DNA of 36,091 nucleotides from Methanobacteriota archaeon (GTDB taxonomy: Archaea > Thermoplasmatota > Poseidoniia > Poseidoniales > Poseidoniaceae): the NCBI GenBank assembly GCA_018645535.1, contig JABGWN010000052.1, positions 1 through 36,091 on the forward strand. Direction: 5' to 3'. The position numbers were made by a program, and so were the translations under genes. Under the pieces are notes generated by a model that saw only the letters and a program-made list of their open reading frames with translations, had not been told where the DNA came from and searched no databases. Shown one piece after another: positions 17,662 through 31,199 of the stretch. Positions within the stretch are counted from its first letter, which is position 1. Every line of letters starts with the position of its first letter.

Positions 17662-17757
17662 AACGTTGCTTCTTGGGCTTTCAATGCGAACTACCACCCC
17701 TTCATATACCTTACCGATGAGATTGCACCCATTGAATTGATTGGAAAGTCTCTTCAA

Positions 17758-19206
17758 ATGCCGACATTAGGGCAAAACGATTGGAATATGTTTGATGAAA
17801 AGAAAGCATTTCGAGAAATCGAATTGTTGGGTGGTGAAGCCAGAGAAATTCACTGGAAGAATTTCGACTTGATCGTACCTCATACTGTATATCCACCAAG
17901 AGAGGATACCGATCTTCTCGCAAGTGTCCTCGAGAAGGTCACACCCTTTGCCAAAAAGCGGCTTCTCGAAATCGGCAGTGGCTCGGGCGCTCTCTCGATT
18001 TTAGCAGCATCTATTGGATGGGAAGTAGAAGCCTGTGACATCAATCCGTTTGCAGTTGCTGCAACCCGATTCAATGCTCTTGAAAATAAGTTCCAAATCA
18101 TATCATCAGAGGGAGGTATCGGCCCGACCAAAGATGGACGTTCTTCACAATGGATGAAACCCGGCACCTATGACCTCGTGATGTGGAACATGCCTTACAT
18201 TCCTGCAGAGGAGATTGAAGAGTATCTTGGACCGTTGGAAGATGCGGCTTTGGTCGACACACATCCATCAGGTTTGTTGAGCAAGTTTGCTGATATGATG
18301 CGACGATTCCAAATTATTTCCCCTACAGGTCTCGCTCTCATCTTGTGCAGAGAGAACATCGGGGCGCTTCGAACACAAGACATACTTCTTGCAAATGGAT
18401 TAGCAACCCGAAAAGTATCAAAACGTACATTCGATGATGATGAAACCATCCAAGTACTTGCAGCATGGCATCCGTTTGTGAAGTCTAAGAAACAACAAAT
18501 GCATACTGTCCCTTCAACAAATTCGGAAATGCTTGAAGGATCCTACAAGCCAGGCGATTCCCTCCGAACAAGATTCCAAACTGGCGGAAAAGGACGCCAT
18601 GGTCGAACATGGGATGACCATCTTGACTCCTTCAAGGGAAGTTGGAAACTCAATCCTGACCGAATACCGCACATTTCGTCCCAATTGCAGTGCAAAGTTG
18701 CTCTTGAGATTGCTTCATTGCTGCAATCGATGGCGGCTGAGGAAGATGTCCTTCGAGTAAAGTGGCCAAATGATCTCCTCGTGCGGGACAGTAAATCCAA
18801 ACAATGGAAAAAAGCAGGGGGTATTCTCTTCCAATCACTCTCGAGAGGGACAGAACAATCTCTTGTTCTCGGCATCGGGATTAACACAAAAACAACCACT
18901 GATGTTCAAGGACGAGGCTCATTAGAAGAAATAGGGGTTGACCTCGACAATACTGAACTTTTTACCCTTCTTGACACCATTGTATCTTCCCTGTTTGAAA
19001 ACAAATCCAACTTGATGAATGTCTCGAGTGAAAGCACAGAACTCAACCTTGATTTATTACTTAGAGATTGCATCTATAGAAATAAAGAATGCACAGTTCG
19101 TGGTGTTTCTGATGAAGGAGAACTTCAAATTGAATCAGACAAAGGAGAATCCTTCGATATCTCTGATGATCTTAGTCTTCTTTGGCCTCATCTTCAACTT
19201 CAATAA
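17758..19206 (+). CDS. Fusion protein: HemK/Mtq2-like class I SAM-dependent methyltransferase (N-terminal) + biotin--protein ligase BirA-like catalytic and C-terminal domains
   Basis: MTase part: LIVPHTVYPPREDTDLLASVL, the SAM motif LLEIGSGSGALSILAA, and an NPPY-like VMWNMPYIP. BPL part: STNSEML..., the signature RFQTGGKGRHGRTWDD, KWPNDLLV, KKAGGILFQS and LGIGINT. One uninterrupted frame. The first ATG is at 17758; the track start at 17737 is TTG. Confidence 0.75.
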   Translation: MPTLGQNDWNMFDEKKAFREIELLGGEAREIHWKNFDLIVPHTVYPPREDTDLLASVLEKVTPFAKKRLLEIGSGSGALSILAASIGWEVEACDINPFAVAATRFNALENKFQIISSEGGIGPTKDGRSSQWMKPGTYDLVMWNMPYIPAEEIEEYLGPLEDAALVDTHPSGLLSKFADMMRRFQIISPTGLALILCRENIGALRTQDILLANGLATRKVSKRTFDDDETIQVLAAWHPFVKSKKQQMHTVPSTNSEMLEGSYKPGDSLRTRFQTGGKGRHGRTWDDHLDSFKGSWKLNPDRIPHISSQLQCKVALEIASLLQSMAAEEDVLRVKWPNDLLVRDSKSKQWKKAGGILFQSLSRGTEQSLVLGIGINTKTTTDVQGRGSLEEIGVDLDNTELFTLLDTIVSSLFENKSNLMNVSSESTELNLDLLLRDCIYRNKECTVRGVSDEGELQIESDKGESFDISDDLSLLWPHLQLQ

Positions 19207-20179: not shown

Positions 20180-21469
20180 ATGGAAGAAGAGACGCCACTT
20201 ACCAAAATGGCCATCATTCGGAGTCTCCTCTCACCATCAACAGCCCCGCACCTCATTCTTCTCGTGATTGCAGCAAGCCTCCTTCATATCATGGCCAAGG
20301 TTGGATCAGAACAGGCGGCAAGCTTCGGATTTATTGCCTTCTCTACAGCCTATATTTTGCTCGCACCTGCATCCAACAAGGAAGTGTTTCGCAAATTAAT
20401 CACATTTGAAAAACAAGAGGATTCGTCATTTGCTGATTCAATGAAGCAGCGATTAAAAATCCTAATCGTACCCACTTCCTTTGGTTTGGTCTTGTGGGGA
20501 ATCATGTCTTTTACCATGGGCGAAGGTAATACCCTCTCTGACGTTGGAACAATCATACCCCCTACGCTGGGTTTCTTATTCGTGGCTTGGGCTGCAGCAC
20601 AAGGATGGTTTTTTGCTTATGCAACCTCAAATTCGATTAAGTCACCAGAGACAGGGACTGTTAAGGATACCTCTACGCACTCCCCAATTCCGTCTTTGAT
20701 AACAACTTCAACGCTGATGGTTGCTATGACGATTCTCGTCACAGAAGCCTTCAGATTCAGCCTTGGAAACAGTTCTTTTAGCGTCTGGCCATATGTTGCT
20801 TCATTTGCAGTGTTTGCCATCAGCGTGAGGATTACCTGGCCCCTTCGGCAAAAAGCCTCTGCCCATACTGCAACGCATGCAGTTGCAAAACGATGGTTTC
20901 ATGTGACTCAACTTTTCATCACTTGGCACGTTCTAAGCATCGTGCGTAGCATCGATTCTGCTTCATCGAATACACTCATATTTATCGAAGAACTCGTATT
21001 GATGATCTTGACTGTTTTCATGGCTATTTGGGCACTAACGAGTAAAGCAGACGGACGCAAATCCACCCTTTTCACCAAAGATAACGCCTTGTTCTGGGGT
21101 GTAGCCTTTGGATATGCATATGCTGGAAGTGTGGCAATGATCACTTCAGTTTTCGATGACTTGACTGCAGTCCTCATCGGAGGACACATCCTTGTTGTTG
21201 CAACAGTTGTATGGGCACAACGCTCGCTACTTGACTCAAGAATCAACCGTATGTTCAAGGATTTTGATATCAAAGAGTCTGTCGAATCAATCGATATCGC
21301 ACCTCTAAAAGAGGAAGAGACTGAGGAGACGACACCTGAAGAAATCCAAACTTCAACAGAAGAAGATGAAACGTTAGAGAGTATAGGCGACCCGGTCGAT
21401 TGGAACCAAAAGCCAGAATCTATTGGTGACGAAACAAACTGGGAAGAGGATGTTGAACTTCTGGATTAA
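20180..21469 (+). CDS. Hypothetical polytopic membrane protein with long acidic C-terminal tail
   Basis: 429-aa ORF with about 9-10 hydrophobic helices. The tail is rich in E/D/T and contains a duplicated ESIGD...W motif. I recognise no family. Confidence 0.55.
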   Translation: MEEETPLTKMAIIRSLLSPSTAPHLILLVIAASLLHIMAKVGSEQAASFGFIAFSTAYILLAPASNKEVFRKLITFEKQEDSSFADSMKQRLKILIVPTSFGLVLWGIMSFTMGEGNTLSDVGTIIPPTLGFLFVAWAAAQGWFFAYATSNSIKSPETGTVKDTSTHSPIPSLITTSTLMVAMTILVTEAFRFSLGNSSFSVWPYVASFAVFAISVRITWPLRQKASAHTATHAVAKRWFHVTQLFITWHVLSIVRSIDSASSNTLIFIEELVLMILTVFMAIWALTSKADGRKSTLFTKDNALFWGVAFGYAYAGSVAMITSVFDDLTAVLIGGHILVVATVVWAQRSLLDSRINRMFKDFDIKESVESIDIAPLKEEETEETTPEEIQTSTEEDETLESIGDPVDWNQKPESIGDETNWEEDVELLD

Positions 21470-22374
21470 TCGTCTGCAATTCCTGATAAAAGCATTACAA
21501 CTCGGATAACTCCCTCGAGTTCGGGAGTTACTCGAGCGCCAAGAATGACTTGTGCTTCTGAGTCTACTGCTGATGTCAACGCCGTTGCAATCTCATCGAC
21601 TTGTCCGATTGTCATGCCGAGTCCTCCTTCAATTTGAAGCAGACAACCTCGTGCGCCGCCGACGTTCATAGGAGCCAGTGGTGCTTTGATTGTGGCTTCA
21701 AATAATTCGTTCAAGTTATCGTGATGCCCCGAACCGACCAGCATAGTCGAGGCTCCAGGCTGACGTACGATTGCCCTCAAGTCCATTAGATCTAGATTGA
21801 TTAAACCCATTGAGAGTAATGTTCGAACCAAGCCATCGACCAAATCCTCGACCCATTCAGAGCCCATACTCCAATCCTTCCCTCTTGTACGAGCCTGTCG
21901 CGCTAGACGTTCCAATGAGAGTTGCACACATACATCCGAATGATGTTCAAGACGTTTTAGTTCGGTTGTAGCAATTTTTAGGCGAGTAGGTTGTTGGGAA
22001 AACGGCAAGGCTGCAATAGAGAGAACTGTTGCTCCGTGAAGTTTAGCTTGTCGTGCAAATTCATGCGAGGCCCCGGTTCCTGTCCCTCCACCAAGTCCGG
22101 TAACGAGAATCACAAGTTCAGCGTTCTCTAAGAATGGGCGTGTACGTGAGGCAAGGCCTCGCATCCTCTGCTCGGCCAGTGGAGGCAAGGCAGCGCAACC
22201 AAGTTGGTCCAGAGTGTGCCCAAGTCTCATGATGTGTCCGTCTTCAGTTTGAGGAAACGATTCATCCGCATCGATCATGAGAAGAGATGCGCCTCCGCCT
22301 CTTGCATGTGCCCTAGAAGCCCATGTGCATCCTAGACCACCAATCCCAACAATGAGGATTTGCGAGGACTCCAT
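21466..22374 (-). CDS. Divergent short FtsZ/tubulin-superfamily protein
   Basis: The tubulin signature LVTGLGGGTGTGAS is intact. The protein is collinear with FtsZ throughout: ILIVGIGGLG (G-box region), LSIAALPF, GLINLDLMDLRAIV (cf. INLDFADV), ASTMLVGSG, GARGCLLQIEGG, IRVVMLLSGI. A strong SD (AAGGAGGGTTC) precedes ATG 22374. At 302 aa it has no C-terminal linker or tail. Confidence 0.75.
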   Translation of the reverse strand: MESSQILIVGIGGLGCTWASRAHARGGGASLLMIDADESFPQTEDGHIMRLGHTLDQLGCAALPPLAEQRMRGLASRTRPFLENAELVILVTGLGGGTGTGASHEFARQAKLHGATVLSIAALPFSQQPTRLKIATTELKRLEHHSDVCVQLSLERLARQARTRGKDWSMGSEWVEDLVDGLVRTLLSMGLINLDLMDLRAIVRQPGASTMLVGSGHHDNLNELFEATIKAPLAPMNVGGARGCLLQIEGGLGMTIGQVDEIATALTSAVDSEAQVILGARVTPELEGVIRVVMLLSGIADD

Positions 22375-22855: not shown

Positions 22856-23680
22856 ATGCTAACAACCTCATTCACCAAGCGACGCCCCATTGTCGTCGCA
22901 GTGTTGCTCTTGCTCCTCTTACCAGGGCTCGCCACGTCTCTGCCGACAGGTATTGGCGGTCAACAACAGAACGGAGGGGAAACAATCGACGATGTTGCCA
23001 AAGAAGGTTGCCTTTGCCACAATGGCGTTCCCGCAAATGAGGTTCAAATTATTCTTGATGGCGTTCCATTCGCATGGACTGCTGGAGAAACCTACGATTT
23101 GGATCTCCACATTATTGGCGGGCCAGATGCAGGAGGTCAATACTCGGCAGGATTCGCAATGAGAGTATCGAGCGGAATTCTTTCCGGCATTGGCGCTGAC
23201 AACTGGCAAGAAGATGAACAATCACTCACCCACACTTCTGCATCAGCTGCTGAGTCCGATCGAATGTGGGAAATCTCATGGGTCGCTCCTGCGGAAGGTG
23301 AAGGAACAATCGTTTTCTGGATAACCGGGAACAGTGTTAACGGCGACGGAGGCCTAGGAAATCAAATCGAAGATATGTGGAATCAACTTACGTTTGCACT
23401 CATCGAAGGCGACGAAGAAAGTCTGGCACGAGGCACACGAACTCTCTTCGCTGGTGATGGAAACGTCAGCCCGCCTGAACCATCATCTCTCGGAACTGAC
23501 CTTCACCACATGGGAGCCAAACTCCGAGCCCACTGGCTTGGATTACTGGGCTTCGGAGCGGTCATCATGTGCATTGTGTTTGCAGGACTCATGCTCCGCT
23601 ATGGCTTCTCTACTTCTTACGAAGGGCGAAGCAACCAACTCCGACTACGGTACAAACTCATGAGAAGAGGTGATCAGTGA
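22856..23680 (+). CDS. Secreted, C-terminally anchored Reeler/DOMON-like beta-sandwich protein
   Basis: Signal peptide (RRPIVVAVLLLLLLPGLATS). The order and spacing of GCLCHNG ... AGETYDLDL.I.G ... AGFAMRVSSG ... LTHTSAS ... ISWVAPAEGEGTIVFWITG resembles the Reeler-domain consensus (C..H.G / GF..qA / tH. / .W.AP). C-terminal TM helix WLGLLGFGAVIMCIVFAGLML. The family call is tentative. Confidence 0.45.
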   Translation: MLTTSFTKRRPIVVAVLLLLLLPGLATSLPTGIGGQQQNGGETIDDVAKEGCLCHNGVPANEVQIILDGVPFAWTAGETYDLDLHIIGGPDAGGQYSAGFAMRVSSGILSGIGADNWQEDEQSLTHTSASAAESDRMWEISWVAPAEGEGTIVFWITGNSVNGDGGLGNQIEDMWNQLTFALIEGDEESLARGTRTLFAGDGNVSPPEPSSLGTDLHHMGAKLRAHWLGLLGFGAVIMCIVFAGLMLRYGFSTSYEGRSNQLRLRYKLMRRGDQ

Positions 23681-24126
23681 TGTACGACGATACAATTGAG
23701 AATCTACTGAAGGGTGTTGCTGATGGTTCCATCTCTGTCAAAGATGCACGTACTGCTCTCGAAGGCGTTGAGCTCACAGAAGAGCAAATGGATGCTGCAA
23801 TCGACCATGGAGTCCACAATGTTGCAGAATCAGGTACAATCGTTAGCGCTTCCCTCGCACCATCGGGAGCATCTTACCTCACTATGTTCTTCTTCGCTTG
23901 GGGAATCTTTTGGATATGCTATTGGTCCTTTTCACTCATTTACGGATTGGCCAATGATTGGGATCAACAGAACATGGCATTCCATCTTGCCATGGTCCTA
24001 ACAACGCTCATACTTATGGGGCTGGTTTATCTGAAATTCATCATACCAGACACCATTATCGTAAAACATTCTCAGAACAAATATGTTCCTGAACATCAGA
24101 AAGACTGGAAGGAGTACAAGTGGTGA
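23680..24126 (+). CDS. Hypothetical small membrane protein (soluble N-terminal ~55 aa + 2-3 TM helices)
   Basis: ATG 23680 overlaps the upstream stop (TGATG). The TM segments are YLTMFFFAWGIFWICYWSFSLIYGL and FHLAMVLTTLILMGLVYLKFII. It lies between the Reeler-like and Rieske genes. Confidence 0.5.
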   Translation: MYDDTIENLLKGVADGSISVKDARTALEGVELTEEQMDAAIDHGVHNVAESGTIVSASLAPSGASYLTMFFFAWGIFWICYWSFSLIYGLANDWDQQNMAFHLAMVLTTLILMGLVYLKFIIPDTIIVKHSQNKYVPEHQKDWKEYKW

Positions 24127-24131
24127 TTTCT

Positions 24132-24974
24132 ATGGCAAAAGATTACGATTTAGTTATCCCCGAGTCAAAGACTGGGGCACTCGAAGTTGCAGGAAACGTC
24201 ATCAATCGAAGACAGTTCTTGCGCTACGGGTTTAACACCGCTACAGGCGTTCTTGCTGCATCATTGGGCGTTCTTGGATTTGCATCTATTCTCCTCCCGC
24301 CTGGTGGAGGCACTGCAGGTGACCTGTCTGTCAAATTCTGGGCAAAGGGTCGAGAAGACACAGCATGGTATGGTGCAAAGCACTTACAGACGATGACGAA
24401 GGCTGACTTCGTTGCAGAGGCTGCAAAGACAAACACAGTCACATCTGGAGCCTCAGGTGTTTGGAATGGCGTCCCTGTTGTCGTCACATATGTTGAAAGC
24501 TCAAAGTGGGAAGGAACACCAGAAGACAACAACAAAGCCCGATTCATCATGATGGAAGGTTACGATGAAAGCGGGAAATATGTTGGCCACTTCGAAGACA
24601 TGGTTGCTCAAGACGAGCGAATTTATCCTTCTGACGATCTCATCATGGTTTTCGGAAGATGCACTCACCTTTGTTGCATCCCAGGATGGCAACTCGTTTC
24701 GAACCAATACACAGATGACTCATGGACACCAGGAGGTACTGATGACGGAGGAACCAAACTGTTCTGCATCTGCCACTCATCTCGATTTGATACAACAGCT
24801 CTTGAGATGAATACAAACAGAAACCGTTCAAACGGTTCAACATTCAAGTATGCTGGTGTTCGAAAAGCTGGAGGGCCTGCTCCCGTTGGACTTCCGCTTA
24901 TTCCGATCGTTCTGAACAATGATGTCGTAGAGGGCATTACCGATTATGTCGACTGGCTGACATACTGCGACTGA
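24132..24974 (+). CDS. Rieske [2Fe-2S] iron-sulfur protein with twin-arginine signal/anchor
   Basis: The RRQFLRYG Tat motif is followed by a hydrophobic helix. Cluster boxes are CTHLCC (box I, C-x-H) and CICHSSRFD (box II, C-x-x-H). ATG 24132 is preceded by GGTG; the track start at 24120 is GTG. Confidence 0.85.
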   Translation: MAKDYDLVIPESKTGALEVAGNVINRRQFLRYGFNTATGVLAASLGVLGFASILLPPGGGTAGDLSVKFWAKGREDTAWYGAKHLQTMTKADFVAEAAKTNTVTSGASGVWNGVPVVVTYVESSKWEGTPEDNNKARFIMMEGYDESGKYVGHFEDMVAQDERIYPSDDLIMVFGRCTHLCCIPGWQLVSNQYTDDSWTPGGTDDGGTKLFCICHSSRFDTTALEMNTNRNRSNGSTFKYAGVRKAGGPAPVGLPLIPIVLNNDVVEGITDYVDWLTYCD

Positions 24975-24984
24975 GGTGAATAAT

Positions 24985-25851
24985 ATGACAACAATGTTCT
25001 GGATTCTTTGGTTCTTTATTGCCTTCATTATCGTCTTAGTGGCCTTCACTCTCCGTAAAGAGACTGAAGAAATGCCCCGCCGTGAAATTCTACGTGCAGT
25101 AGAATCAACAGGAGGCATGGGTGTTTCCGAACGAGCATTCCTGTGGGTGTTTTCTTGGATGGATACCCGATTCCGTATTCAAGATTACTGGAACATGTCA
25201 AAAGGTGCCTATTACAACATGCATCGACAAATGCCTCTCACACACGCCGAGAAATACAAACTTCGAATCATTTGGTATTGGTACCCGCTCTACTGTCTTG
25301 GTGGAATTTCCTTCCTGAGTTTCATCGTTCTCGTCATCACAGGAACCGTTCTTGGAATTTACTATGTTCCAGGTGGAGAAGGCGATCCTTCGCCTGCGTA
25401 TGCCTCGATGGAATTCATTATGCTTGAGCTCCCATTCGGGTACATTATCAGAGCAGTGCACCATTGGACGACGCACTTCATGGTAGCATCAGTCTTCCTA
25501 CACATGTGTCGCGTCTACTTCACAGGAGCATACCGAAACCCTCGTGAACTAAACTGGTTAATCGGTGTAGCGCTCATGGCTCTTACAATCGTCTTTGGAT
25601 ACTCTGGCTATCTCCTTCCGTGGGACAGTCTCGCATACGGTGCTGCTGTCATTGGAATTAACCTTGCCAATTCATCTCCATTGATTGGAAAATACATTGC
25701 AACTCTTTTGTTTGGAGGTTCTTCACTGACGCCTCGAACCGTAACCCGTATGTATTTCATACACGTCTTTATTCTACCAGTGATAGTGACCACATTGATC
25801 ATTATTCACTTGTTTATTGTTTGGGTACAAGGCATTGCGGAGCCGCATTGA
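24985..25851 (+). CDS. Cytochrome b6-type (N-terminal half of cytochrome b) with extra N-terminal TM helix
   Basis: Blocks seen: YCLGGISFLSFIVLVITGTVLGIYYVP; helix B RAVHHWTTHFMVASVFLHMCRVYFTGAY; GYSGYLLPWDSLAYGAAVI; helix D RMYFIHVFILPVIVTTLIIIH. It ends ...VQGIAEPH like b6. GAGGTG lies 6 nt upstream of ATG 24985. Confidence 0.9.
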   Translation: MTTMFWILWFFIAFIIVLVAFTLRKETEEMPRREILRAVESTGGMGVSERAFLWVFSWMDTRFRIQDYWNMSKGAYYNMHRQMPLTHAEKYKLRIIWYWYPLYCLGGISFLSFIVLVITGTVLGIYYVPGGEGDPSPAYASMEFIMLELPFGYIIRAVHHWTTHFMVASVFLHMCRVYFTGAYRNPRELNWLIGVALMALTIVFGYSGYLLPWDSLAYGAAVIGINLANSSPLIGKYIATLLFGGSSLTPRTVTRMYFIHVFILPVIVTTLIIIHLFIVWVQGIAEPH

Positions 25852-25866
25852 TACGAGGTGTGACAA

Positions 25867-28683
25867 ATGGGATTAATGGAAAATTTTGGTAGAGTAGCTA
25901 CATCCTACATGGATGAGAAAGCAAAGCTCGAAGAAGCAGGCGAGAAGCGAACACGTACACGAATGGGTCACGGATTCTGGCCTCATGAAGTGCTGCGAGA
26001 TACAATTCTCTTTTCATTCATGGCAGCAGTTCTTCTGTTCTATGCGTGGTTGATTCCACCGCCACTTCACGGTGCTGCAGATCCATATGCGCAAGCAGGA
26101 TTCGTATTCCCTGATTGGTACGTTCTGTTCTCATACGGATACTTGCGTTGGGGAGAATATCTCCCTCAATTTACAGTCCCTACAGGATTCATTGGTGATA
26201 TTGTTGGCCAACCTGTATTTGCATGGAACGCTGCATGGTGGGGCGCTGCTCTAACTGGAATCCCTATTGGCATCCTCACACTCCCACCTCTAATTGGAGG
26301 ACGTGAAAAGAGACCTGTCGAAGACCCGTGGTTTGCCGCTGCAGGAGCAGTTTATTTGGCACACATTTGGTTTATCTCTGTATTCTCGATCAACATCTTC
26401 CTTGAACTGTACGGGAAAAACCGGTCTGATTATTGTAAACTGGATTCACATGGAGACTTACTGTGTGGTACAAGAGCGCCTTGGATGGCAGATATTTTCA
26501 ATGCAGTACCTTGGATTCTGACGGGTTTATTGTTGTGGATTGTGATTTACTTCATTGCCCGAAACGTGATGGTCAAGGCCTGGGGTTCTGGATTCACCCC
26601 TGCTCATGGAAAGCGCCTCATCGTCGGCGCACTGGTTATCTCTGCCGGAGCATCTGTTGCAACATTCGACACATACGACAACGGTTTCTGGGAAGCTGGC
26701 GGTCTTTTGACCATCAAAGGGCTAACGCACGATTATTATCCTGAACTGGAAGCAATGCGAACTCAACCAACTGATGTACACGTACACGAAATAAATGAGT
26801 TCACTGATGACCGGGGGTACTCCGATGATGGTATTGTGCCTGCCGCTGCATGGACAGACTGGCAAATCTACCAGCCAGCGCGAGAAGTGCTTATCGATTT
26901 CAGTGACGCAAATAATCACCAAGATGCGGAAGAAGGCCTCAATGCAGCTGGAACAACAGCATCCTTCTATGGTGGAGACGGATTCACAATGAGTGGAACA
27001 TTCACTGTAACAGAAGATACGAACAACTTCCCAGACGGACATCATGAATCTGTTGAATCACTTACAACGGACGTCGTTTGTGAATATCGATCGAGTGAGC
27101 GCAAAATCGATGGTGTCAATACTGCAACAATGCTCACCAGTTCGCTCAGCGTCACAGATGCGAAGGGGAAGGTCATGACCTCCTTCTCCGGATGTGTAGG
27201 GGATGAGATTACTCTTGAACCAGGTGTCTACGACTACGAATACAGTCTTCAAGCATCAGGAGCTCTTGCACAGAACAATTCGATCATGACCGAAACAACA
27301 TTCTCAATTCGTGCATATCAACCACTCCTTCTATGGAACAGCAATGCTGGCCCACTCGCTGGAACTGTTGTCAATCTCAGTGATACCGCTACAATAGCAG
27401 CATCCTCTGGAACATACAGCGATGTTGTCAACCCATCATACCACGTCAACCCGAAGGCACTCGATGCAAAACTCACGTATGCTATGTTCATTCCATGTTT
27501 GACATTTGGTGCAATCGTCGTCGTTGTCTTGAGATCAATGGCACGAGGATATGAATTCGAAATGAACAAGTGTTACGGTTGCGATTTGTGTGACGACGCT
27601 TGTCCAGTTCGATTGTTCAATGGTGGAGACAAACTCAACATCATTTACAATTCGTGGAACAATGAAGACGATGGTGTACCAATGTACTCCTGTCTGACGT
27701 GTACTGCCTGTACTAATGCATGCCCACAACTCGTCAACTATGACTCCTATGTTGATATTCGTAGAAGCCTCATCGTAGGCGGTCCGGCGGCTGAAATACC
27801 TCACACAGTGTTGCAAGCAGTCTTGGCTGCAGAAGCTGAAGAAGCATCAAACGAGGACTTCATCCCAGTAGAAGAGTACCCAATCACATCCAATGTTGGC
27901 TATTATCCAGGATGCGTTGACTATCTCGACCAAGAGATGGTCTTCTCCCACGTCAATGAAGGAGATATGAATCTTGGAGATTCGACAACTGCTGCCTTCA
28001 CTCTCTTCGAAGAAATGGGGCATGATGTATCGTACCTCGGCCGTGATTTCTTGAAGTGCTGTGGACACGATCAAAAGTGGCAAGGACTCACTGAAGTATT
28101 TGATAAACTCAAAGCCTACAATCAAAAGAAGATTGAAGCATCAGGCATTGATACACTCGTCTCATCATGTGCTGAATGTTTCCGAACCTTTGCTCGAGAT
28201 TACGAACTTGAAGGAGTCAAGGTCATGCACACAACAGAGTATCTCATCGAAAGCGGATTCGACATGGAACTCTCAACTGATGCTACAACAGTTACCTATC
28301 ACGACCCATGTCGACTTGGTCGTCAAATGGGAATCTATGATGAGCCTCGTGAACTGATCAACGCTGTAGAAGGTGTAGATCTCGTCGAGATGGAACACAG
28401 TGGAGAGGACGCTATGTGCTGTGGCGTCTCCAGTATGATGTCATGCAACGAAAATGCACGTGCTCTACGTGTGGCTCGTATGGAAGAAATCAAGTCCACT
28501 GGTGCTGACACCATGCTCACCTCATGCCCGAAGTGTGTTTCACACTTTGAGTGCTTGAAGTTTGAAGGTGATGAGCGATACGAAGACATTGAGATTCTCG
28601 ATGTTGTATCCTTCCTCGCACGAGAAGTTAACGCAAAGAAGAGCGAATTGACTCAACCTACACTCGGTGAAGTTGAAGCTTGA
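25867..28683 (+). CDS. Fusion: cytochrome b C-terminal half/subunit IV-like membrane domain + ~270-aa extracytoplasmic domain + HdrD/GlpC-type module (2x[4Fe-4S] ferredoxin motifs + 2 CCG domains)
   Basis: The FWPHEVLRD...PDWYVLFSYGYLRW (PEWY-type Qo motif) region has TM helices through residue ~265. Another TM helix is at ~536-555. Ferredoxin motifs are CYGCDLCDDACP and CLTCTACTNACP. The CCG domains are GC(683)...KCCGHD(731/732)...SCAEC(768/771) and PC(815)...MCCGVS(851/852)...SCPKC(887/890). It is a single 938-codon frame. GAGGTG lies 8 nt upstream of ATG 25867. Confidence 0.85.
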   Translation: MGLMENFGRVATSYMDEKAKLEEAGEKRTRTRMGHGFWPHEVLRDTILFSFMAAVLLFYAWLIPPPLHGAADPYAQAGFVFPDWYVLFSYGYLRWGEYLPQFTVPTGFIGDIVGQPVFAWNAAWWGAALTGIPIGILTLPPLIGGREKRPVEDPWFAAAGAVYLAHIWFISVFSINIFLELYGKNRSDYCKLDSHGDLLCGTRAPWMADIFNAVPWILTGLLLWIVIYFIARNVMVKAWGSGFTPAHGKRLIVGALVISAGASVATFDTYDNGFWEAGGLLTIKGLTHDYYPELEAMRTQPTDVHVHEINEFTDDRGYSDDGIVPAAAWTDWQIYQPAREVLIDFSDANNHQDAEEGLNAAGTTASFYGGDGFTMSGTFTVTEDTNNFPDGHHESVESLTTDVVCEYRSSERKIDGVNTATMLTSSLSVTDAKGKVMTSFSGCVGDEITLEPGVYDYEYSLQASGALAQNNSIMTETTFSIRAYQPLLLWNSNAGPLAGTVVNLSDTATIAASSGTYSDVVNPSYHVNPKALDAKLTYAMFIPCLTFGAIVVVVLRSMARGYEFEMNKCYGCDLCDDACPVRLFNGGDKLNIIYNSWNNEDDGVPMYSCLTCTACTNACPQLVNYDSYVDIRRSLIVGGPAAEIPHTVLQAVLAAEAEEASNEDFIPVEEYPITSNVGYYPGCVDYLDQEMVFSHVNEGDMNLGDSTTAAFTLFEEMGHDVSYLGRDFLKCCGHDQKWQGLTEVFDKLKAYNQKKIEASGIDTLVSSCAECFRTFARDYELEGVKVMHTTEYLIESGFDMELSTDATTVTYHDPCRLGRQMGIYDEPRELINAVEGVDLVEMEHSGEDAMCCGVSSMMSCNENARALRVARMEEIKSTGADTMLTSCPKCVSHFECLKFEGDERYEDIEILDVVSFLAREVNAKKSELTQPTLGEVEA

Positions 28684-28688
28684 AGCGT

Positions 28689-28979
28689 TTAATCTTCGGT
28701 TGGAGGAGTTCCTTCCTCATCCATCCCCACGATCTCATAGTTTGATGGGAAGAGCGCAATGATGACTCCAGCGATGAGACTGATCAATCCCCACATGAAC
28801 TCTTGTTGAACAAATAACAGTTCAAGAGCGATAACACAGAGAACAAGACCGCCGATGTTTGAAGTCCAAACAAGCGTCTTGAACGTGCCGAGCGATACAC
28901 CAGTTGTACCATCTTTCCGATATGGTCCAAACTCTCCACCGAAACGTTGTGCTGATGGTTCTTTTCCTTTCTTTGACAT
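28689..28979 (-). CDS. Hypothetical small 2-TM membrane protein
   Basis: 96-aa ORF, last in a tightly packed minus-strand gene string. TM helices are IGGLVLCVIALELLFV and GLISLIAGVIIALF. No family recognised. Confidence 0.4.
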   Translation of the reverse strand: MSKKGKEPSAQRFGGEFGPYRKDGTTGVSLGTFKTLVWTSNIGGLVLCVIALELLFVQQEFMWGLISLIAGVIIALFPSNYEIVGMDEEGTPPTED

Positions 28980-28989
28980 CGTTCATTCC

Positions 28990-29322
28990 TCATCGGTCTA
29001 TCATGGTGATTGCATCTGTTGGACAAGCGAGAACACATAGCCTGCATCCAGTGCAAGCATCTCTGATAATTTTCGCTTTCTGATTGCTTTCAACATTGAG
29101 TAAGGGGCTTCGCATGGCCATCTTGTACATCTCAATGGCATCATCATCACATACGATTGTGCATTGATCACAGCCGATACATAATGATTCTTGGACAAAA
29201 GCGACAGCAGTCTCACCTCCCTTGAGGGATGAATGCTGTACACCTCGCTGACGATTGAGGCTGGAGCGTATACGCTTCGCCTCTTCTTCGCGACGACGCT
29301 TAAGGTCATCCGAGGACGTCAT
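28990..29322 (-). CDS. 2x[4Fe-4S] dicluster ferredoxin with basic N-terminal extension
   Basis: CIGCDQCTIVCDDDAI and CTGCRLCVLACPTDAI are two CxxCxxCxxxC(P) motifs. The N-terminal ~40 aa are rich in R/K/E. ATG 29322 overlaps the upstream gene end by 17 nt. Confidence 0.8.
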   Translation of the reverse strand: MTSSDDLKRRREEEAKRIRSSLNRQRGVQHSSLKGGETAVAFVQESLCIGCDQCTIVCDDDAIEMYKMAMRSPLLNVESNQKAKIIRDACTGCRLCVLACPTDAITMIDR

Positions 29323-29965
29323 GTTCTACCTGACCAATGGGTTGGCCTTCAAACTTGGCAACGCTCAGATTTACAAGAAGATCTCCAAAGCAGTAGAATG
29401 CTCCAACCAATAATGGTGGATTCCAAGCAGTTAATCCGGTATATGGTACAGTAGAAGCCCAAGTCCAATTGCACAGGTAAGTCCCCCACAATTCCATTGC
29501 AAGAGCAAGCCAAACCATTGTAGCATAAAGTCGGGGCTCTGGACCCCATCGAATGAAACCAAAGGTGAGAATCAATAACAAGACCGCTGAGGTATCAGTT
29601 CCTTTTAGGGCCCCATACAGAACAAGCGGTAGAAGAGCGAGAATGAGATAAACTGGAGATGAGGAGGGAATCCTCTTGGCCACTCTACGTCCTAAATCAA
29701 ACAAGAAATAATGACCGACTGGAACAAAGAGGGGCATTAATCCTCTTTGATATTCATAAATTAACCATACCTCACTGAAGAACAATTCCATTGGCGTTGC
29801 AAATGCCAACACCGCAATCATTTCGATTCGTTCTTTACGATCTGTTATGATGAAAAGATACAGAAAAGTTCCAAGGCACCAGATATCAACAGGCCATTGA
29901 GCATACTTAGCTGAAACAAAGAGACCTACAGCGATGGTCGTGATGTAAAGCAGTTCACGACGCAT
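29306..29965 (-). CDS. Hypothetical polytopic membrane protein (~6-7 TM)
   Basis: 219-aa hydrophobic ORF between the GshA-like and ferredoxin genes. No family recognised. Confidence 0.45.
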   Translation of the reverse strand: MRRELLYITTIAVGLFVSAKYAQWPVDIWCLGTFLYLFIITDRKERIEMIAVLAFATPMELFFSEVWLIYEYQRGLMPLFVPVGHYFLFDLGRRVAKRIPSSSPVYLILALLPLVLYGALKGTDTSAVLLLILTFGFIRWGPEPRLYATMVWLALAMELWGTYLCNWTWASTVPYTGLTAWNPPLLVGAFYCFGDLLVNLSVAKFEGQPIGQVEHDVLG

Positions 29966-29996: not shown

Positions 29997-31199
29997 TCAT
30001 GACGTTTTCATCGCTTCTAATTCAAGTCCCATAGCGAGCATTGAGATTTCAGCAACCAAGGCGTGCCAATTATGTGCATGAGTCATATATCCAGGCTCTT
30101 GATCAGAAGTGACAAATTGTGCGCTCGGAGAATTAAGATTACCAATGTCATCTCGTTTTGCATTAACTCTGTAAAACCAGGAGGAAGCATCACCATCGAC
30201 GAGATAGACCACTGGCTCTACTGGAAATCCTTCTTCTGTTTTCATAAGAGTCGGAACGCCTTCTTGTATCAAGAAATCTTCAACATCCGTGGTTCCTTTC
30301 CCATACATTAGTTTCTTCATCTTGCGGTTCGATAGATTGAGAAGTTGCTCACCTGAAGTCACAGTCATAATGCCTAAGCCATAAGTTCCACGATTATTTT
30401 TGACATACACAACGGGCTCTCTGTCAAGACCAAGTGATTGATACCGCTTTGAAAGAAGGGCGATAAAATCATCAACCTCTTTTGCTAATTTTACTCGACA
30501 GGCTTCTTTTTCCAAACATTTATTCTCAGAGACGAATGAATCACAAAGTAAGTGCCATGGTTCTATTCCAATTATTTCGCTTACTTCTTCAACAAGGGGA
30601 CGGAGGTGTTCAAAATGCATGGATTTCTTTCTCTTGTGCCAACCCATTTGTGGATTTGGCAAGATATGGGGGGATGAAAGGCCCTGCAAACCTTCGTCAG
30701 TTAGATCGTTGTTGAGCAGAATAAAGTCTGGTTGTTCTCCGTTTACCAGAAGAACATCGTTGATAATCTCGACTTGATTCAATGGAAGGGGACCAAGAAG
30801 TCCATTGAGTGTTTCGAACCCATCAAGTTCGGGATTACCGACTGTACATCGGTATCCTGCCGATTCAACCAATTTACACAACGTTCGAAGATTCTCAACA
30901 TATCCTTGATTTCTCGTATGAGATTCGGGATAGATATGAACCCATTTGCAATTGGGATTATTTCGTTTAATGTGTTCTGAAATACGATTTGTGAGATGAG
31001 GTAAATCCGAGTCCGAGGTATTGTTGAAACCAGCAGGGAATTGATTCGCATCGACAACAGCTATTTTCCATCCAGCATCTCTGACATCTACACTTCCGTA
31101 AATTGGGACCTCTATTGACGAACGCTTTTCATTCATCCATTTCGTCAATTCATCACGCTTTTCTTCTAGTCGATTGCTTAGTTCGTGTAGGAATGTCAT
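29997..31199 (-). CDS. GshA-type (Acidithiobacillus-type, PF08886-like) glutamate--cysteine ligase candidate
   Basis: These blocks resemble my recollection of the rare proteobacterial GshA family: PIYGSVDVRDAGWKIAVVDANQFPAGFNN, YPESHTRNQGYVENL, LLNNDLT, GWHKRKKSMHF, RGTYGLGIMTVTSGE...LSNRKMKKL, IQEGVPT, EPVVYLVDG...FYRV....D.GNLNSP. It is not verified by search. Confidence 0.5.
   Translation of the reverse strand: MTFLHELSNRLEEKRDELTKWMNEKRSSIEVPIYGSVDVRDAGWKIAVVDANQFPAGFNNTSDSDLPHLTNRISEHIKRNNPNCKWVHIYPESHTRNQGYVENLRTLCKLVESAGYRCTVGNPELDGFETLNGLLGPLPLNQVEIINDVLLVNGEQPDFILLNNDLTDEGLQGLSSPHILPNPQMGWHKRKKSMHFEHLRPLVEEVSEIIGIEPWHLLCDSFVSENKCLEKEACRVKLAKEVDDFIALLSKRYQSLGLDREPVVYVKNNRGTYGLGIMTVTSGEQLLNLSNRKMKKLMYGKGTTDVEDFLIQEGVPTLMKTEEGFPVEPVVYLVDGDASSWFYRVNAKRDDIGNLNSPSAQFVTSDQEPGYMTHAHNWHALVAEISMLAMGLELEAMKTS

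What the first reader, a model, noticed from the sequence alone, without database searches (positions are those of the whole stretch)
22856..28683. Five-gene Rieske/cytochrome b6-type module with no cytochrome c or cupredoxin partner
The same-strand genes have minimal spacing and SD-like boxes: a TGATG overlap at 23680; gaps 24126->24132, 24974->24985 and 25851->25867; GGTG/GAGGTG upstream of the starts. This implies one transcript. It would encode a Reeler/DOMON-like anchored protein, a 148-aa membrane protein, a Tat-Rieske protein, a cytochrome b6-like protein, and the subunit IV-HdrD fusion. I found no CxxCH heme-c motif and no obvious type-1 copper ligand pattern in any of the five products, so the acceptor of the high-potential Rieske branch is unassigned. 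The only extracytoplasmic candidates are the Reeler-like protein and the outside domain of the fusion. As a whole this looks like a non-canonical quinol-oxidising complex.
Basis: partly seen in the sequence, partly recalled or inferred. Interest (0 to 1): 0.75.

Follow-up and report, generated by a model that had tools for sequence, protein, structure and literature searches.

The report
Archaeal complex III with HdrD arm
This is the conserved respiratory "complex III" operon of the abundant Marine Group II ocean archaea: a chloroplast-b6f-like quinol oxidase whose small membrane subunit is fused to a cytoplasmic iron-sulfur domain, and whose usual cytochrome c or copper partner is replaced by an uncharacterised anchored protein.

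Summary
Five tightly packed + strand genes (22856-28683) sit at the stated coordinates with the stated junctions. Their order is kept in every one of 82 Poseidoniales loci that reach that far.

The products are:
- a Reeler-fold ectoprotein with a C-terminal anchor;
- a DUF7318 membrane subunit;
- a divergent Tat-Rieske protein;
- a cytochrome b6 with b6-type histidine spacing and the haem-cn motif YCLGG;
- a 938-aa fusion of b6f subunit IV (Qo motif PDWY) with a complete cytoplasmic HdrD module.

No CxxCH motif or cupredoxin is found in the operon, in the window, or within ±10 kb in relatives.

The subunit IV-HdrD fusion is not specific to MGII. Shorter versions occur in Thermoplasmata and Geothermarchaeota, next to ferredoxin, MvhD or HdrA genes. 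Their outward-facing module varies: a fused type-1 copper domain, a pentahaem cytochrome c, or a C-x5-CH ectodomain.

Most likely this is a quinol oxidase running a Q cycle, with an iron-sulfur wire linking a cytoplasmic low-potential carrier (the adjacent RnfB-like ferredoxin) to haem bH/cn. The direction of flow and the outer acceptor are unresolved.

I class it as a new variant of a known kind. The literature has noted it only in passing.

The parts
22856..23680 (+). g1: 274-aa type-I membrane protein. It has a signal/anchor helix (aa 11-29), an acidic Reeler-fold ectodomain, a C-terminal TM (228-246) and a conserved basic cytoplasmic tail. Conserved residues: invariant G-C52-x-C54-H55, M219 and H226; near-invariant M102 (89%+) and H218 (90%+).
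   Evidence: - NCBIfam choice_anch_V, 2.3e-23, above the cutoff.
- AF2 model built with an MSA, pLDDT 76.
- Foldseek top 8 hits are F-spondin reeler domains, E 1e-4 to 1e-3, target TM-score 0.53-0.60.
- Conservation.
- Topology.
23680..24126 (+). g2: 148-aa, two-TM accessory subunit of the DUF7318 family. It is conserved upstream of the Rieske gene across the whole family.
   Evidence: - Pfam DUF7318, 1e-3.
- BLASTP 1e-17 to the DUF7318 protein of the Thermoplasmata cluster and 2e-5 to the 77-aa protein of L083.
- A DUF7318 gene precedes Rieske in L081, L082 and L087-L093.
24132..24974 (+). g3: 280-aa divergent Rieske [2Fe-2S] protein. Features: Tat motif R26-R27-Q-F, TM anchor 37-55, box I C177-T-H179-L-C-C182, box II C212-I-C214-H215, and the Pro loop GGPAPVGLP. 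The start could instead be GTG 24120.
   Evidence: - TIGR01416, 1.7e-10, below the cutoff.
- phmmer to 7yr9 Rieske aligns both boxes.
- The ortholog profile hits only a bc1 Rieske, E 1.2e-3, including the Pro loop.
- Invariance.
- Pfam Rieske is not detected.
24985..25851 (+). g4: 288-aa cytochrome b6. It has an extra N-terminal TM, haem ligands H159/H173 and H260/H275 (b6-type spacing), and Y-C104-L-G-G, the haem cn/ci attachment motif.
   Evidence: - Pfam Cytochrome_B, 4e-42.
- Best PDB hits are b6 of b6f, 1.2e-43, with CLGG aligned to b6 Cys35 and all four His aligned.
- C104 is invariant in 46 orthologs.
- CxGG meaning: PMC5600118, PMC4122944.
25867..26673 (+). g5 aa 1-269: subunit IV-like membrane part. 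It contains helices E, F, G plus two more TMs, and the Qo motif P82-D-W-Y85 in the first outside loop.
   Evidence: - The family N-terminal profile hits the cyt b C-terminal half at 1.4e-13 and b6f subunit IV at 1.5e-9.
- Shorter homologs carry Pfam PF00032.
- PDWY is invariant.
- Topology.
26674..27471 (+). g5 aa 270-535: acidic extracytoplasmic insert. It is specific to Poseidoniales, poorly conserved and variable in length.
   Evidence: - Alignment A1 shows low conservation, large indels, and only C405/C443/H351 invariant.
- Absent from the 540-800-aa fusions of other archaea.
- No Pfam hit.
27472..28683 (+). g5 aa 536-938: last TM (536-554), then a cytoplasmic HdrD-type module. It has two CxxCxxCxxxCP motifs (C569-C579, C609-C619) and two complete CCG domains (C683, C731-C732, C768, C771; C815, C851-C852, C887, C890).
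   Evidence: - Pfam CCG 3.9e-23 (2 stretches) and Fer4_8.
- NCBIfam TfrB, 2.6e-32.
- The closest solved chain is EtfD 9ojn_A, 4e-21, aligned residue by residue.
- All Cys are invariant.
28990..29322 (-). d2: 110-aa 2x[4Fe-4S] RnfB-like ferredoxin and the likely cytoplasmic partner. Here it is convergent with g5. In other MGII lineages it lies co-directionally just after g5.
   Evidence: - Pfam Fer4_21, 4.6e-14.
- TIGR01944 rnfB, 3.9e-13, below the cutoff.
- Adjacent to g5 in 67 of 80 loci, in either orientation; 10 of the other 13 loci hold under 500 nt after g5.
- Co-directional in L085/L086.
28689..28979 (-). d1: 96-aa two-TM protein that always travels with the ferredoxin. It may be an additional small subunit.
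   Evidence: - Synteny.
- Topology.
- A 72-91-aa protein holds the same position after the Fer4/FlpD gene in Thermoplasmata clusters. The similarity to it is not significant.
29306..29965 (-). d3: 219-aa membrane protein. It forms a block with d2 and d1 in Poseidoniaceae but is absent from L085/L086. Whether it belongs to the system is uncertain.
   Evidence: - The block d3-d2-d1 moves and inverts as a unit next to g5 (L063, L071, L073, L077, L079).
- No family hit.

Best explanation
The locus encodes the respiratory Rieske/cytochrome b complex ("complex III") of a Poseidoniaceae (Marine Group II) archaeon. It is built on the b6f plan.

**Shown by sequence**
- A Tat-exported Rieske protein.
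- A four-helix cytochrome b6 with two b haems and the cysteine that binds haem cn.
- A separate subunit IV carrying the Qo motif PDWY, the variant linked in the literature to menaquinol oxidation.
- Subunit IV continues, after further TM helices, into a complete HdrD-type module on the cytoplasmic side: two cubane [4Fe-4S] sites and two CCG sites. The first cluster motif starts only about 14 residues after the last helix.

**Inferred mechanism**
- Quinol is oxidised at Qo.
- One electron leaves through the Rieske cluster to an outer acceptor. This acceptor is either g1, the anchored Reeler-fold protein that occupies the gene position held by a cytochrome c or copper protein in relatives, or a carrier encoded elsewhere.
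- The b haems run a Q cycle.
- The Fe-S arm forms an electron wire between haem bH/cn and a cytoplasmic low-potential carrier. The best candidate is the RnfB-like ferredoxin that always lies next to g5.

I consider electron input the more likely direction: reduced ferredoxin, or another cytoplasmic donor such as ETF, passes electrons through the Fe-S chain to haem cn/bH and quinone at Qi. This is how the homologous Fe-S arm of mycobacterial EtfD feeds a b haem and menaquinone, and how Diamond et al. proposed for Angelarchaeales. The direction is the least certain step.
For: **Identity of the parts:**

**Topology:** g5 has six TMs, N-terminus in and C-terminus in. PDWY sits in an outside loop with K+R = 1. 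The inside loops are basic. The Fe-S module is inside.

**Conservation:**
- Haem ligands, C104, PDWY and all 18 Fe-S cysteines are invariant.
- Gene order is conserved in 82 MGII loci.
- The ferredoxin and the small protein stay next to g5 in either orientation.

**The fusion is an old, recurrent design tied to cytoplasmic low-potential modules:**
- About 45 clusters of 540-800-aa PF00032+CCG proteins occur outside MGII.
- In Thermoplasmata they are followed by a Fer4+MvhD/FlpD gene.
- In Geothermarchaeota they are followed by FrhB-HdrA-MvhD.
- In L083/84 they are followed by HdrC-HdrB-HdrA-MvhD.
- In L091 they are followed by a flavoprotein, Fer4 and MvhD.

**Precedents:**
- EtfD structure: cytosolic ETF to CCG clusters to cubanes to haem b to menaquinone.
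- Diamond et al. noted hdrD-like and rnfB-like genes beside complex III and proposed ferredoxin entry.
- Tully et al. noted an MGII-specific complex III and an orphan RnfB.
- PDWY goes with menaquinol and low-potential Rieske proteins.
Against: - Nothing here shows that the proteins assemble. No distance from the proximal cluster to haem cn/bH was computed, because no multimer prediction was available.
- Direction is unproven. g5 keeps the full HdrB-type cysteine set (CC in both CCG domains, no EtfD-type Thr/His substitutions). That fits catalytic disulfide chemistry at least as well as a passive wire.
- In this window the ferredoxin is on the opposite strand, so it is not co-transcribed here.
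- Whether MGII lacks other ferredoxin:quinone or ETF:quinone routes was not examined.
- The quinone type of MGII is unknown to me.
- The Rieske protein is so divergent that Pfam misses it.
Confidence: 0.5

Rival explanations
1. The parts are the same but the flow is reversed. Qo-site bifurcation is used to make low-potential reductant. One electron goes through Rieske toward O2. The other goes bL to bH to cn to the Fe-S arm, and reduces ferredoxin or another cytoplasmic acceptor instead of quinone. This is what has been proposed for the anammox Rieske/cyt b complexes that carry an NAD(P) reductase on the n-side.
For: - The anammox complexes are also b6-type with subunit IV, haem cn and an n-side Fe-S chain, and are argued to generate NAD(P)H.
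- Relatives link the fusion to HdrA/MvhD bifurcation-type modules.
- An aerobic high-potential sink would supply the driving force (inference).
Against: - A peptide- and lipid-degrading aerobe is expected to have surplus reduced ferredoxin and ETF, not a need to make them (inference).
- In aerobes, CCG-domain proteins with known function (EtfD, GlpC, GlcF-type hits) act as input modules to quinone.
- No potentials are known.
Confidence: 0.2
2. The HdrD module is a real thiol/disulfide enzyme, making the complex an HdrDE-like quinol:disulfide (or thiol:quinone) oxidoreductase built on cytochrome b6/subunit IV instead of HdrE. It would act on a low-molecular-weight or protein-bound disulfide of the cell.
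For: - Both CCG domains keep all five cysteines, as in catalytic HdrB, unlike EtfD.
- A GshA-type glutamate-cysteine ligase is a conserved neighbour.
- L082 has GcvH and extra HdrD genes in the cluster.
Against: - Many non-disulfide CCG proteins also keep the full motif (own knowledge).
- The gshA linkage may simply reflect the strong general synteny of these genomes.
- No substrate-related gene lies in the operon.
- Exposed noncubane clusters are expected to be oxygen-sensitive.
Confidence: 0.12
3. This is an ordinary complex III function only. Electrons leave through Rieske to a small blue copper protein, or directly to the CuA subunit of the oxidase, encoded elsewhere. On this reading g1 is a structural or assembly subunit, and the HdrD arm is regulatory, vestigial, or unrelated to turnover.
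For: - Archaeal Rieske/cyt b clusters often lack an encoded acceptor and use copper proteins.
- MGII papers report halocyanin and plastocyanin genes.
- The Reeler fold has no known cofactor.
Against: - All 18 Fe-S cysteines are invariant over at least 40% sequence divergence and across phyla, which argues against a vestigial arm.
- The 'halocyanin' and 'plastocyanin' of the cited MGII bin are a 777-aa fasciclin protein and a 2641-aa Big_1 protein, so they are doubtful cupredoxins.
- g1 has an invariant C-x-CH and strictly co-occurs with the operon.
Confidence: 0.13
4. The five genes do not form one complex. Their proximity would reflect only the compact, highly syntenic genome.
For: Flanking housekeeping genes are equally syntenic in the 80 loci.
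Against: - The DUF7318-Rieske-cyt b6-fusion core recurs in different genomic contexts in Thermoplasmata, Geothermarchaeota and others.
- Cyt b6 cannot form a Qo site without subunit IV (established knowledge of b6f).
- Overlapping or 5-15-nt junctions carry SD boxes.
Confidence: 0.03

Closest known systems
Cytochrome b6f / Firmicute-type bc complexes (split cyt b6 + subunit IV with haem cn)
   Same: - Four-helix b6 with b6-type His spacing.
- YCLGG aligned to Cys35.
- A separate subunit IV with the P[E/D]WY motif.
- A Tat-exported Rieske protein.
   Different: - No cytochrome f or c subunit.
- Subunit IV is extended by extra TMs, an ectodomain and an HdrD module.
- Extra N-terminal TM on b6.
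- DUF7318 and Reeler-fold subunits.
- The Rieske protein is highly divergent.
Complex III-like locus of Ca. Angelarchaeales with hdrD-like and rnfB-like genes (Diamond et al. 2022, PMC9038741)
   Same: - Thermoplasmatota.
- A cytochrome b/Rieske cluster with no cytochrome c.
- HdrD-like and RnfB-like genes alongside.
- Ferredoxin entry proposed.
   Different: - That paper describes the genes only as proximal; a fusion with subunit IV is not reported.
- A plastocyanin-like gene sits upstream of Rieske there, where MGII has g1.
Anammox Rieske/cyt b complexes Kuste4569-4574 and Kustd1480-1485
   Same: - b6-type core with subunit IV and haem cn.
- An Fe-S chain and redox module on the cytoplasmic face.
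- A non-canonical p-side module.
   Different: - Bacterial.
- The n-side module is a separate FAD/NAD(P) oxidoreductase, not an HdrD fused to subunit IV.
- The p-side modules are multihaem cytochromes c.
Mycobacterial EtfD (Rv0338c; PDB 9OJN)
   Same: - Closest solved homolog of the Fe-S arm (4e-21).
- One polypeptide joins TM helices to 2 cubane + 2 CCG clusters.
- It wires a cytosolic donor to a b haem and menaquinone.
   Different: - The membrane part is HdrE/NarI-like with one haem, not subunit IV.
- The EtfD CCG sites are modified (linear [3Fe-4S], His ligand), whereas g5 keeps the HdrB-type set.
- No Rieske protein and no Qo site.
HdrDE heterodisulfide reductase of Methanosarcinales
   Same: An HdrD module docked on a membrane b-type cytochrome.
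   Different: - The partner is cyt b6/subunit IV of a Rieske complex, not HdrE.
- The host is an aerobic non-methanogen.
- The substrate is unknown.
Bacterial 'PDWF-FeS' cytochromes b (Kao & Hunte 2014)
   Same: Whole cyt b, including the Qo motif, fused to a 4Fe-4S domain and an MvhD domain or a flavoprotein.
   Different: - Those clusters have no Rieske protein.
- The fused module is different.
- Bacterial, and few in number.
Sulfolobus SoxLN-CbsAB complex (own knowledge, not checked here)
   Same: An archaeal Rieske/cyt b unit in which an anchored, beta-rich extracytoplasmic non-c-type protein is thought to replace cytochrome c1.
   Different: - CbsA is a characterised b-type haem protein.
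- g1 has no shown cofactor and no detected similarity to it.

Membership tests
Rieske/cytochrome b complex, b6f type | Rieske protein with CxH...CxCH boxes, a disulfide Cys pair and a Pro loop, exported by Tat | tested here: met
   - C177-T-H-L-C-C182, C212-I-C-H215, GGPAP and RRQF are all invariant.
- Statistical support is weak: TIGR01416 1.7e-10 below the cutoff, PDB profile hit 1.2e-3, and Pfam misses it.
Rieske/cytochrome b complex, b6f type | Four-helix cytochrome b6 with two His pairs (14 and 15 apart) | tested here: met
   H159/H173 and H260/H275 align to b6 H86/H100 and H187/H202. E 1.2e-43 to b6.
Rieske/cytochrome b complex, b6f type | CxGG motif for covalent haem cn | tested here: met
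   Y-C104-L-G-G aligns to b6 Cys35 and is invariant. Actual haem attachment cannot be tested here.
Rieske/cytochrome b complex, b6f type | Subunit IV / cyt b C-terminal part with the P[E/D]WY Qo motif | tested here: met
   Family profile 1.4e-13 to cyt b residues 235-380 and 1.5e-9 to b6f subunit IV. PDWY is invariant. For the window protein alone, Pfam PF00032 is not detected.
Rieske/cytochrome b complex, b6f type | c-type cytochrome subunit (f or c1) or an encoded copper acceptor | tested here: not met
   - No haem-c motif.
- No cupredoxin or cytochrome c family in the operon or window.
- None within ±10 kb in 82 MGII loci, by motif scan and tblastn with one cupredoxin (low sensitivity for cupredoxins).
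HdrD (HdrC+HdrB-type) module | Two CxxCxxCxxxCP cubane motifs | tested here: met
   C569/572/575/579 and C609/612/615/619 are invariant. Fer4_8 3.5e-7.
HdrD (HdrC+HdrB-type) module | Two CCG domains, each C...CCG...CxxC | tested here: met
   Pfam CCG 3.9e-23, two stretches. All ten Cys are present and invariant.
HdrD (HdrC+HdrB-type) module | HdrE-type membrane cytochrome partner and CoM-S-S-CoB reduction | tested here: not met
   The membrane part is subunit IV of a Rieske complex. The substrate cannot be tested. It should therefore be called HdrD-like, not heterodisulfide reductase.
Reeler domain / choice-of-anchor V | Reeler beta-sandwich fold; NCBIfam NF041895 above the cutoff | tested here: met
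   - NF041895 82.9 bits against a cutoff of 42.
- Foldseek top hits 3coo/2zou/2zot, probability 1.00, target TM-score 0.53-0.60.
- Pfam Reeler is not detected, so the fold match is moderate.
DUF7318 | Pfam PF24002 match | tested here: inconclusive
   The window protein scores 19.4 bits against a cutoff of 27. However, BLASTP gives 1e-17 to a full DUF7318 member in the same gene position.
RnfB | TIGR01944 above the cutoff, an N-terminal membrane anchor, and membership of an Rnf complex | tested here: not met
   49.4 bits against a cutoff of 68.7. Only the 2x[4Fe-4S] part matches. MGII is reported to have no other Rnf genes. It should be called an RnfB-like ferredoxin.

The most novel reading that the evidence does not exclude
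g1 is a new kind of high-potential redox subunit that stands in for cytochrome c1/f. It would be a Reeler-fold, C-terminally anchored ectoprotein carrying a cofactor on its invariant G-C-x-C-H motif, helped by M102 and H218-M219/H226 at the membrane surface. The cofactor could be a haem held by a non-canonical Cys/His motif, or a copper or iron site.

The same logic would apply to the conserved C-x5-C-H-G ectodomain fused to cytochrome b6 in Thermoplasmata relatives. That ectodomain sits exactly where another relative has a genuine type-1 copper domain.
Probability: 0.25. Interest if true: 0.85.

Novelty: new variant of a known kind. Interest (0 to 1): 0.64.

Why it matters
Marine Group II archaea are among the most abundant heterotrophs of the surface ocean, and none is cultured. 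Their respiratory chain is drawn in the literature with an undefined "MGII-specific complex III".

This analysis defines that complex. It is a b6f-type core with the haem-cn motif, a cytoplasmic HdrD-type Fe-S arm fused to subunit IV, an attendant ferredoxin, and no recognisable cytochrome c or copper subunit.

If the arm exchanges electrons with haem cn/bH, these archaea couple ferredoxin (or ETF, or thiol) metabolism directly to the Q cycle. That would change estimates of their energy yield from peptides and lipids.

It would also provide a natural, covalently fixed example of electron exchange between a cytoplasmic Fe-S carrier and the n-side of a b6f-type complex. This has long been debated for ferredoxin-driven cyclic flow in chloroplast b6f, and was recently proposed for anammox complexes.

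The swapping of the outward module between relatives points to two uncharacterised candidate redox domains. The modules seen are a copper domain, a pentahaem cytochrome, a C-x5-CH domain and the Reeler C-x-CH protein.

Tried and rejected
1. A single-sequence AF2 model of g1 was useless (pLDDT 48). It was redone with 45 orthologs.
2. Sequence-profile searches of g1 against the PDB found nothing meaningful.
3. I suspected that the N-terminal ectodomain of the Thermoplasmata Big_5-cyt b6 fusions was homologous to g1. BLASTP and NCBIfam gave no support. g1 is also not similar to the L091 cupredoxin fusion.
4. The C-terminal anchor of g1 resembles the anchor of the L083 pentahaem cytochrome. Smith-Waterman gives 53 against shuffles of 22.8±4.4, with 0 of 2000 shuffles reaching it. 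BLASTP with composition correction reports nothing, and the test was post hoc, so I treat it as a hint only.
5. d1 against the small protein after the Fer4/FlpD gene in L081 is not significant. d2 against that Fer4/FlpD protein shows only generic ferredoxin similarity.
6. Inserts between g5 and d1 in some loci were checked as possible hidden cupredoxins. They encode a SAP/zinc-ribbon membrane protein, an SDR, a TetR-like protein and an Mrr-like nuclease.
7. The bacterial promoter/terminator scan was uninformative.
8. The literature claim that MGII have halocyanin and plastocyanin was checked in the source table. The genes so named are very large fasciclin/Ig-domain proteins, so I do not rely on it.
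9. The outside domain of g5 is rejected as acceptor because of poor conservation.
10. A literature search for a 'CXCH' haem motif found none, only Rieske box II.

Full report
**Observation**

The five + strand ORFs are present as described:
- g1: 22856-23680
- g2: 23680-24126
- g3: 24132-24974
- g4: 24985-25851
- g5: 25867-28683

Reading the junctions confirms the TGATG overlap at 23678-23682 and gaps of 5, 10 and 15 nt. GAGGTG or GGTG boxes lie 6-7 nt before each internal ATG. In-frame GTG alternatives exist for g2, g3 and g4, so the g3 and g4 starts are not certain. None of the products contains a CxxCH-type motif. No cytochrome c or cupredoxin family hits any operon product or any large ORF of the window.

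The rest of the window is archaeal housekeeping: the RNA polymerase H/B/A'/A'' operon, L7Ae/L30e and an FtsZ-like gene. Loci 96-99% identical to g5 at protein level carry the record title Candidatus Poseidoniaceae or Poseidoniales. The source is therefore a Marine Group IIa archaeon (lineage).

**Identity of the products**

*g4* is a cytochrome b6.
- Pfam Cytochrome_B scores 4e-42.
- The best solved relatives are b6 subunits of b6f, at 1.2e-43.
- In that alignment H159/H173 and H260/H275 fall on the four haem ligands with the b6-type spacing. "YCLGG" falls on the Cys35 motif that binds haem cn.
- The CxGG motif is the accepted signature of haem cn (PMC5600118; PMC4122944). C104 is invariant in 46 orthologs.

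*g5* begins as subunit IV.
- The single sequence gives only weak hits.
- A profile of the N-terminal parts of g5 and its shorter homologs hits the C-terminal half of cytochrome b at 1.4e-13 and b6f subunit IV at 1.5e-9.
- The shorter homologs carry Pfam PF00032.
- The Qo motif is PDWY and is invariant. Kao and Hunte associate this form with menaquinol oxidation and low or mid-potential Rieske proteins.

The C-terminal 380 residues of g5 are a complete HdrD module.
- They hold two CxxCxxCxxxCP motifs and two CCG domains with all ten cysteines.
- Hydropathy and charge distribution give six TMs with both ends inside. PDWY lies in an outside loop, an acidic 266-residue outside insert follows, and the Fe-S module is cytoplasmic. 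The first cluster motif starts about 14 residues after the last helix.

*g3* is a very divergent Rieske protein.
- Pfam misses it. It does have an invariant RRQF Tat motif, a TM anchor, both cluster boxes with the disulfide cysteines, and the GPAP Pro loop.
- The only families or structures it hits are bc-type Rieske subunits.

*g2* belongs to DUF7318. It is weak against Pfam but scores 1e-17 against a full member in the same gene position in a Thermoplasmata genome.

*g1* is a type-I membrane protein.
- NCBIfam recognises it as choice-of-anchor V (2.3e-23).
- With an alignment of 45 orthologs AF2 gives pLDDT 76. Foldseek's best PDB matches are the reeler domains of F-spondin (E about 1e-4, target TM-score 0.53-0.60).

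**Conservation and extent**

Full-length g5 homologs are abundant. At least 429 species-level genomes in GTDB encode a relative. A tblastn map of 13 window proteins on the best 80 loci shows g1-g5 in the same order wherever the contig reaches. Two more divergent MGII loci (about 60% identity) show the same. A published MGIIb bin shows the same b6-Rieske-small protein-CCG arrangement.

The unit is larger than five genes.
- The 110-aa 2x[4Fe-4S] ferredoxin (28990-29322, minus strand; best NCBIfam match rnfB, below the cutoff) and a 96-aa two-TM protein lie next to g5 in 67 of the 80 loci. Of the other 13, ten hold under 500 nt of sequence after g5.
- In several Poseidoniaceae the block d3-d2-d1 is inverted and so co-directional with g5.
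- In L085 and L086 the ferredoxin starts 28 and 348 nt after g5 on the same strand.
- This ferredoxin is probably the orphan "RnfB" reported for MGII.

**The wider family**

A search of 50%-identity representatives found one full-length cluster and a set of 540-800-aa proteins. These match the N-terminal and C-terminal parts of g5 but lack the outside insert. A profile of them retrieved about 45 clusters annotated PF00032 + CCG, from Thermoplasmata, Geothermarchaeota and unnamed MAGs (taxonomy).

Their gene neighbourhoods are consistent: DUF7318, then Rieske, then cytochrome b6, then the fusion, then cytoplasmic low-potential modules. The downstream modules are:
- a Fer4+MvhD/FlpD protein resembling the C-terminus of HdrA2 in Thermoplasmata;
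- FrhB-HdrA-MvhD in Geothermarchaeota;
- HdrC-HdrB-HdrA-MvhD in L083/L084;
- a flavoprotein, a Fer4 protein and MvhD in L091.

Most of these b6 proteins also carry C[LF]GG; L082 does not.

The outward-facing module is different in each lineage:

| Lineage | Outward-facing module | Calls |
|---|---|---|
| L091 | Genuine type-1 copper cupredoxin (H...C-x2-H-x3-M) plus an Ig domain, fused through an extra TM to the N-terminus of b6 | 102, 104 |
| Thermoplasmata | Same position holds an ectodomain whose only conserved cysteines form a C-x5-C-H-G motif near the mature N-terminus, followed by Big_5 repeats | 86, 89 |
| L083/L084 | Separate pentahaem cytochrome c with a C-terminal anchor, upstream of the DUF7318-like gene | 82 |
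| Angelarchaeales | Plastocyanin-like gene reported upstream of Rieske | 46 |
| MGII | g1 | see above |

g1 keeps G-C52-x-C54-H55, M219 and H226 invariant. M102 and H218 are conserved in about 90% or more of orthologs and in all six sequences of the alignment that reaches 51% identity. H126 is replaced by Gln in some lineages.

**Mechanism**

*Shown:*
- The parts of a b6f-type Qo/Qi machine are present and conserved.
- A full HdrD-type Fe-S module is covalently attached to subunit IV on the cytoplasmic side.
- A small ferredoxin travels with it.

*Inferred:*
- The Fe-S arm lies within electron-transfer distance of haem bH/cn. It then links a cytoplasmic carrier to the n-side of the complex while the Rieske branch feeds an outer acceptor.
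- The best structural precedent is mycobacterial EtfD, the closest solved homolog of the arm (4e-21). There, CCG clusters, two cubanes, a b haem and menaquinone form one wire for electrons coming from cytosolic ETF.
- Diamond et al. saw hdrD-like and rnfB-like genes beside complex III in Angelarchaeales and suggested ferredoxin entry.

I therefore favour input of low-potential electrons (ferredoxin, possibly ETF) into haem cn/bH and quinone at Qi, on top of a normal Q cycle.

The opposite direction would be Qo bifurcation producing reduced ferredoxin. It is the model proposed for the anammox complexes with an n-side NAD(P) reductase and cannot be excluded.

A third reading is real disulfide chemistry. 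It is kept alive because g5, unlike EtfD, retains the HdrB-type CC pairs and lacks EtfD's Thr539/His583 substitutions. A glutamate-cysteine ligase gene is also a constant neighbour.

**The missing acceptor**

No canonical cytochrome c or cupredoxin lies in the operon, in the window, or within ±10 kb in 82 MGII loci. The cupredoxin test outside the window is of low sensitivity.

The outside insert of g5 is the least conserved part of the protein and is unlikely to be redox-active.

g1 is the better candidate for four reasons:
- its gene position;
- its cytochrome c1/f-like topology;
- its strict co-occurrence with the operon;
- its invariant C-x-CH motif.

However, the Reeler fold has no known cofactor, and I found no report of a CXCH haem motif. 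A carrier encoded elsewhere remains possible. The "halocyanin" and "plastocyanin" cited for MGII are doubtful, being a 777-aa fasciclin protein and a 2641-aa Ig-domain protein in the source table.

**Comparison with what is known**

The complex works like, and passes most membership tests for, a b6f-type Rieske/cytochrome b complex. It fails the test of having a c-type or copper subunit. The Fe-S arm meets the sequence definition of HdrD but not its partner or substrate definition.

Partial precedents exist:
- bacterial PDWF-FeS cytochromes b fused to 4Fe-4S/MvhD domains;
- the anammox complexes;
- the Angelarchaeales locus;
- the remark that MGII have a lineage-specific complex III.

I found no description of the subunit IV-HdrD fusion itself, of the haem-cn motif in these archaeal b6 proteins, or of the swapping p-side modules. 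Kao and Hunte in 2014 listed CxGG only for Firmicutes, cyanobacteria/chloroplasts and the APWY clade. The literature library is limited, so an existing description cannot be excluded.

**Verdict**

This is a real, conserved, ecologically widespread operon. I class it as a new variant of a known kind. The open questions are the direction of flow through the Fe-S arm and the nature of g1's conserved site.

Noticed in passing
L091:5406-6968: In one relative of the fusion family, a genuine type-1 copper cupredoxin domain plus an Ig-like domain is fused through an extra TM helix to the N-terminus of cytochrome b6. The electron acceptor and cytochrome b are a single polypeptide.
   Followed up: partly
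L081:7343-9973 (also L087-L090, L092, L093): Thermoplasmata relatives have an approximately 875-aa protein combining an ectodomain with cytochrome b6. In L081 and L087-L090 (not inspected in L092/L093) the ectodomain has 2-3 cysteines, of which the conserved ones form a C-x5-C-H-G motif near the mature N-terminus. No family matches that N-terminal part.
   Followed up: partly
window 29997-31199 (-): A GshA-type glutamate-cysteine ligase is a constant neighbour of the cluster, present in 54 of the 80 loci and in L085. It is absent from 13 loci that extend at least 1.5 kb beyond g5, and from L086. It hints at a gamma-glutamylcysteine-type thiol in these archaea. A link to the HdrD-like module is only speculation.
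   Followed up: partly
window 17737-19206 (+): A 489-aa fusion of an N-terminal methyltransferase (PrmA/MTS-like) with a biotin/lipoate protein ligase domain. It is also present in the divergent locus L086.
   Followed up: no
window 4714-8061 (-): A 1115-aa protein whose only family hit is a thrombospondin type 3 repeat. It is probably a large surface protein.
   Followed up: no
window 3140-4663 (-): A full-length SelO protein adenylyltransferase (AMPylase) homolog, 1.4e-113, in an archaeal genome.
   Followed up: no
window 21466-22374 (-): A short (302-aa) FtsZ/tubulin-family protein and a small TPR protein lie directly upstream of the operon on the opposite strand. Both are conserved in all loci.
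   Followed up: no
window 20180-21469 (+): A 429-aa polytopic membrane protein with a very acidic C-terminal tail and no family hit. It diverges much faster than its neighbours (30-55% against 60-98% identity).
   Followed up: no
L046 and L072: Two contigs carrying this archaeal operon at 77% and 88% identity sit in MAGs labelled Verrucomicrobiales bacterium and Rhodobiaceae bacterium. This is probably binning contamination in public genomes.
   Followed up: no
PMC9723583 supplementary file 4: The genes called 'halocyanin' and 'plastocyanin' in an MGII metatranscriptome study are a 777-aa fasciclin-domain protein and a 2641-aa Ig-domain protein. The names may be annotation artefacts.
   Followed up: partly
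L054:12960-16008; L019:12866-13627: Variable inserts lie between g5 and the small-protein/ferredoxin block. L054 has an SDR, a TetR-like regulator and an Mrr-like nuclease island. About 20 other loci have an insert of roughly 0.8 kb; in L019, the one inspected, it is a 253-aa SAP-domain/zinc-ribbon membrane protein.
   Followed up: partly
L085:10001-14005: Some MGII lineages have a 1334-1344-aa version of the fusion (P0311, P0334), with a much larger outside insert.
   Followed up: no
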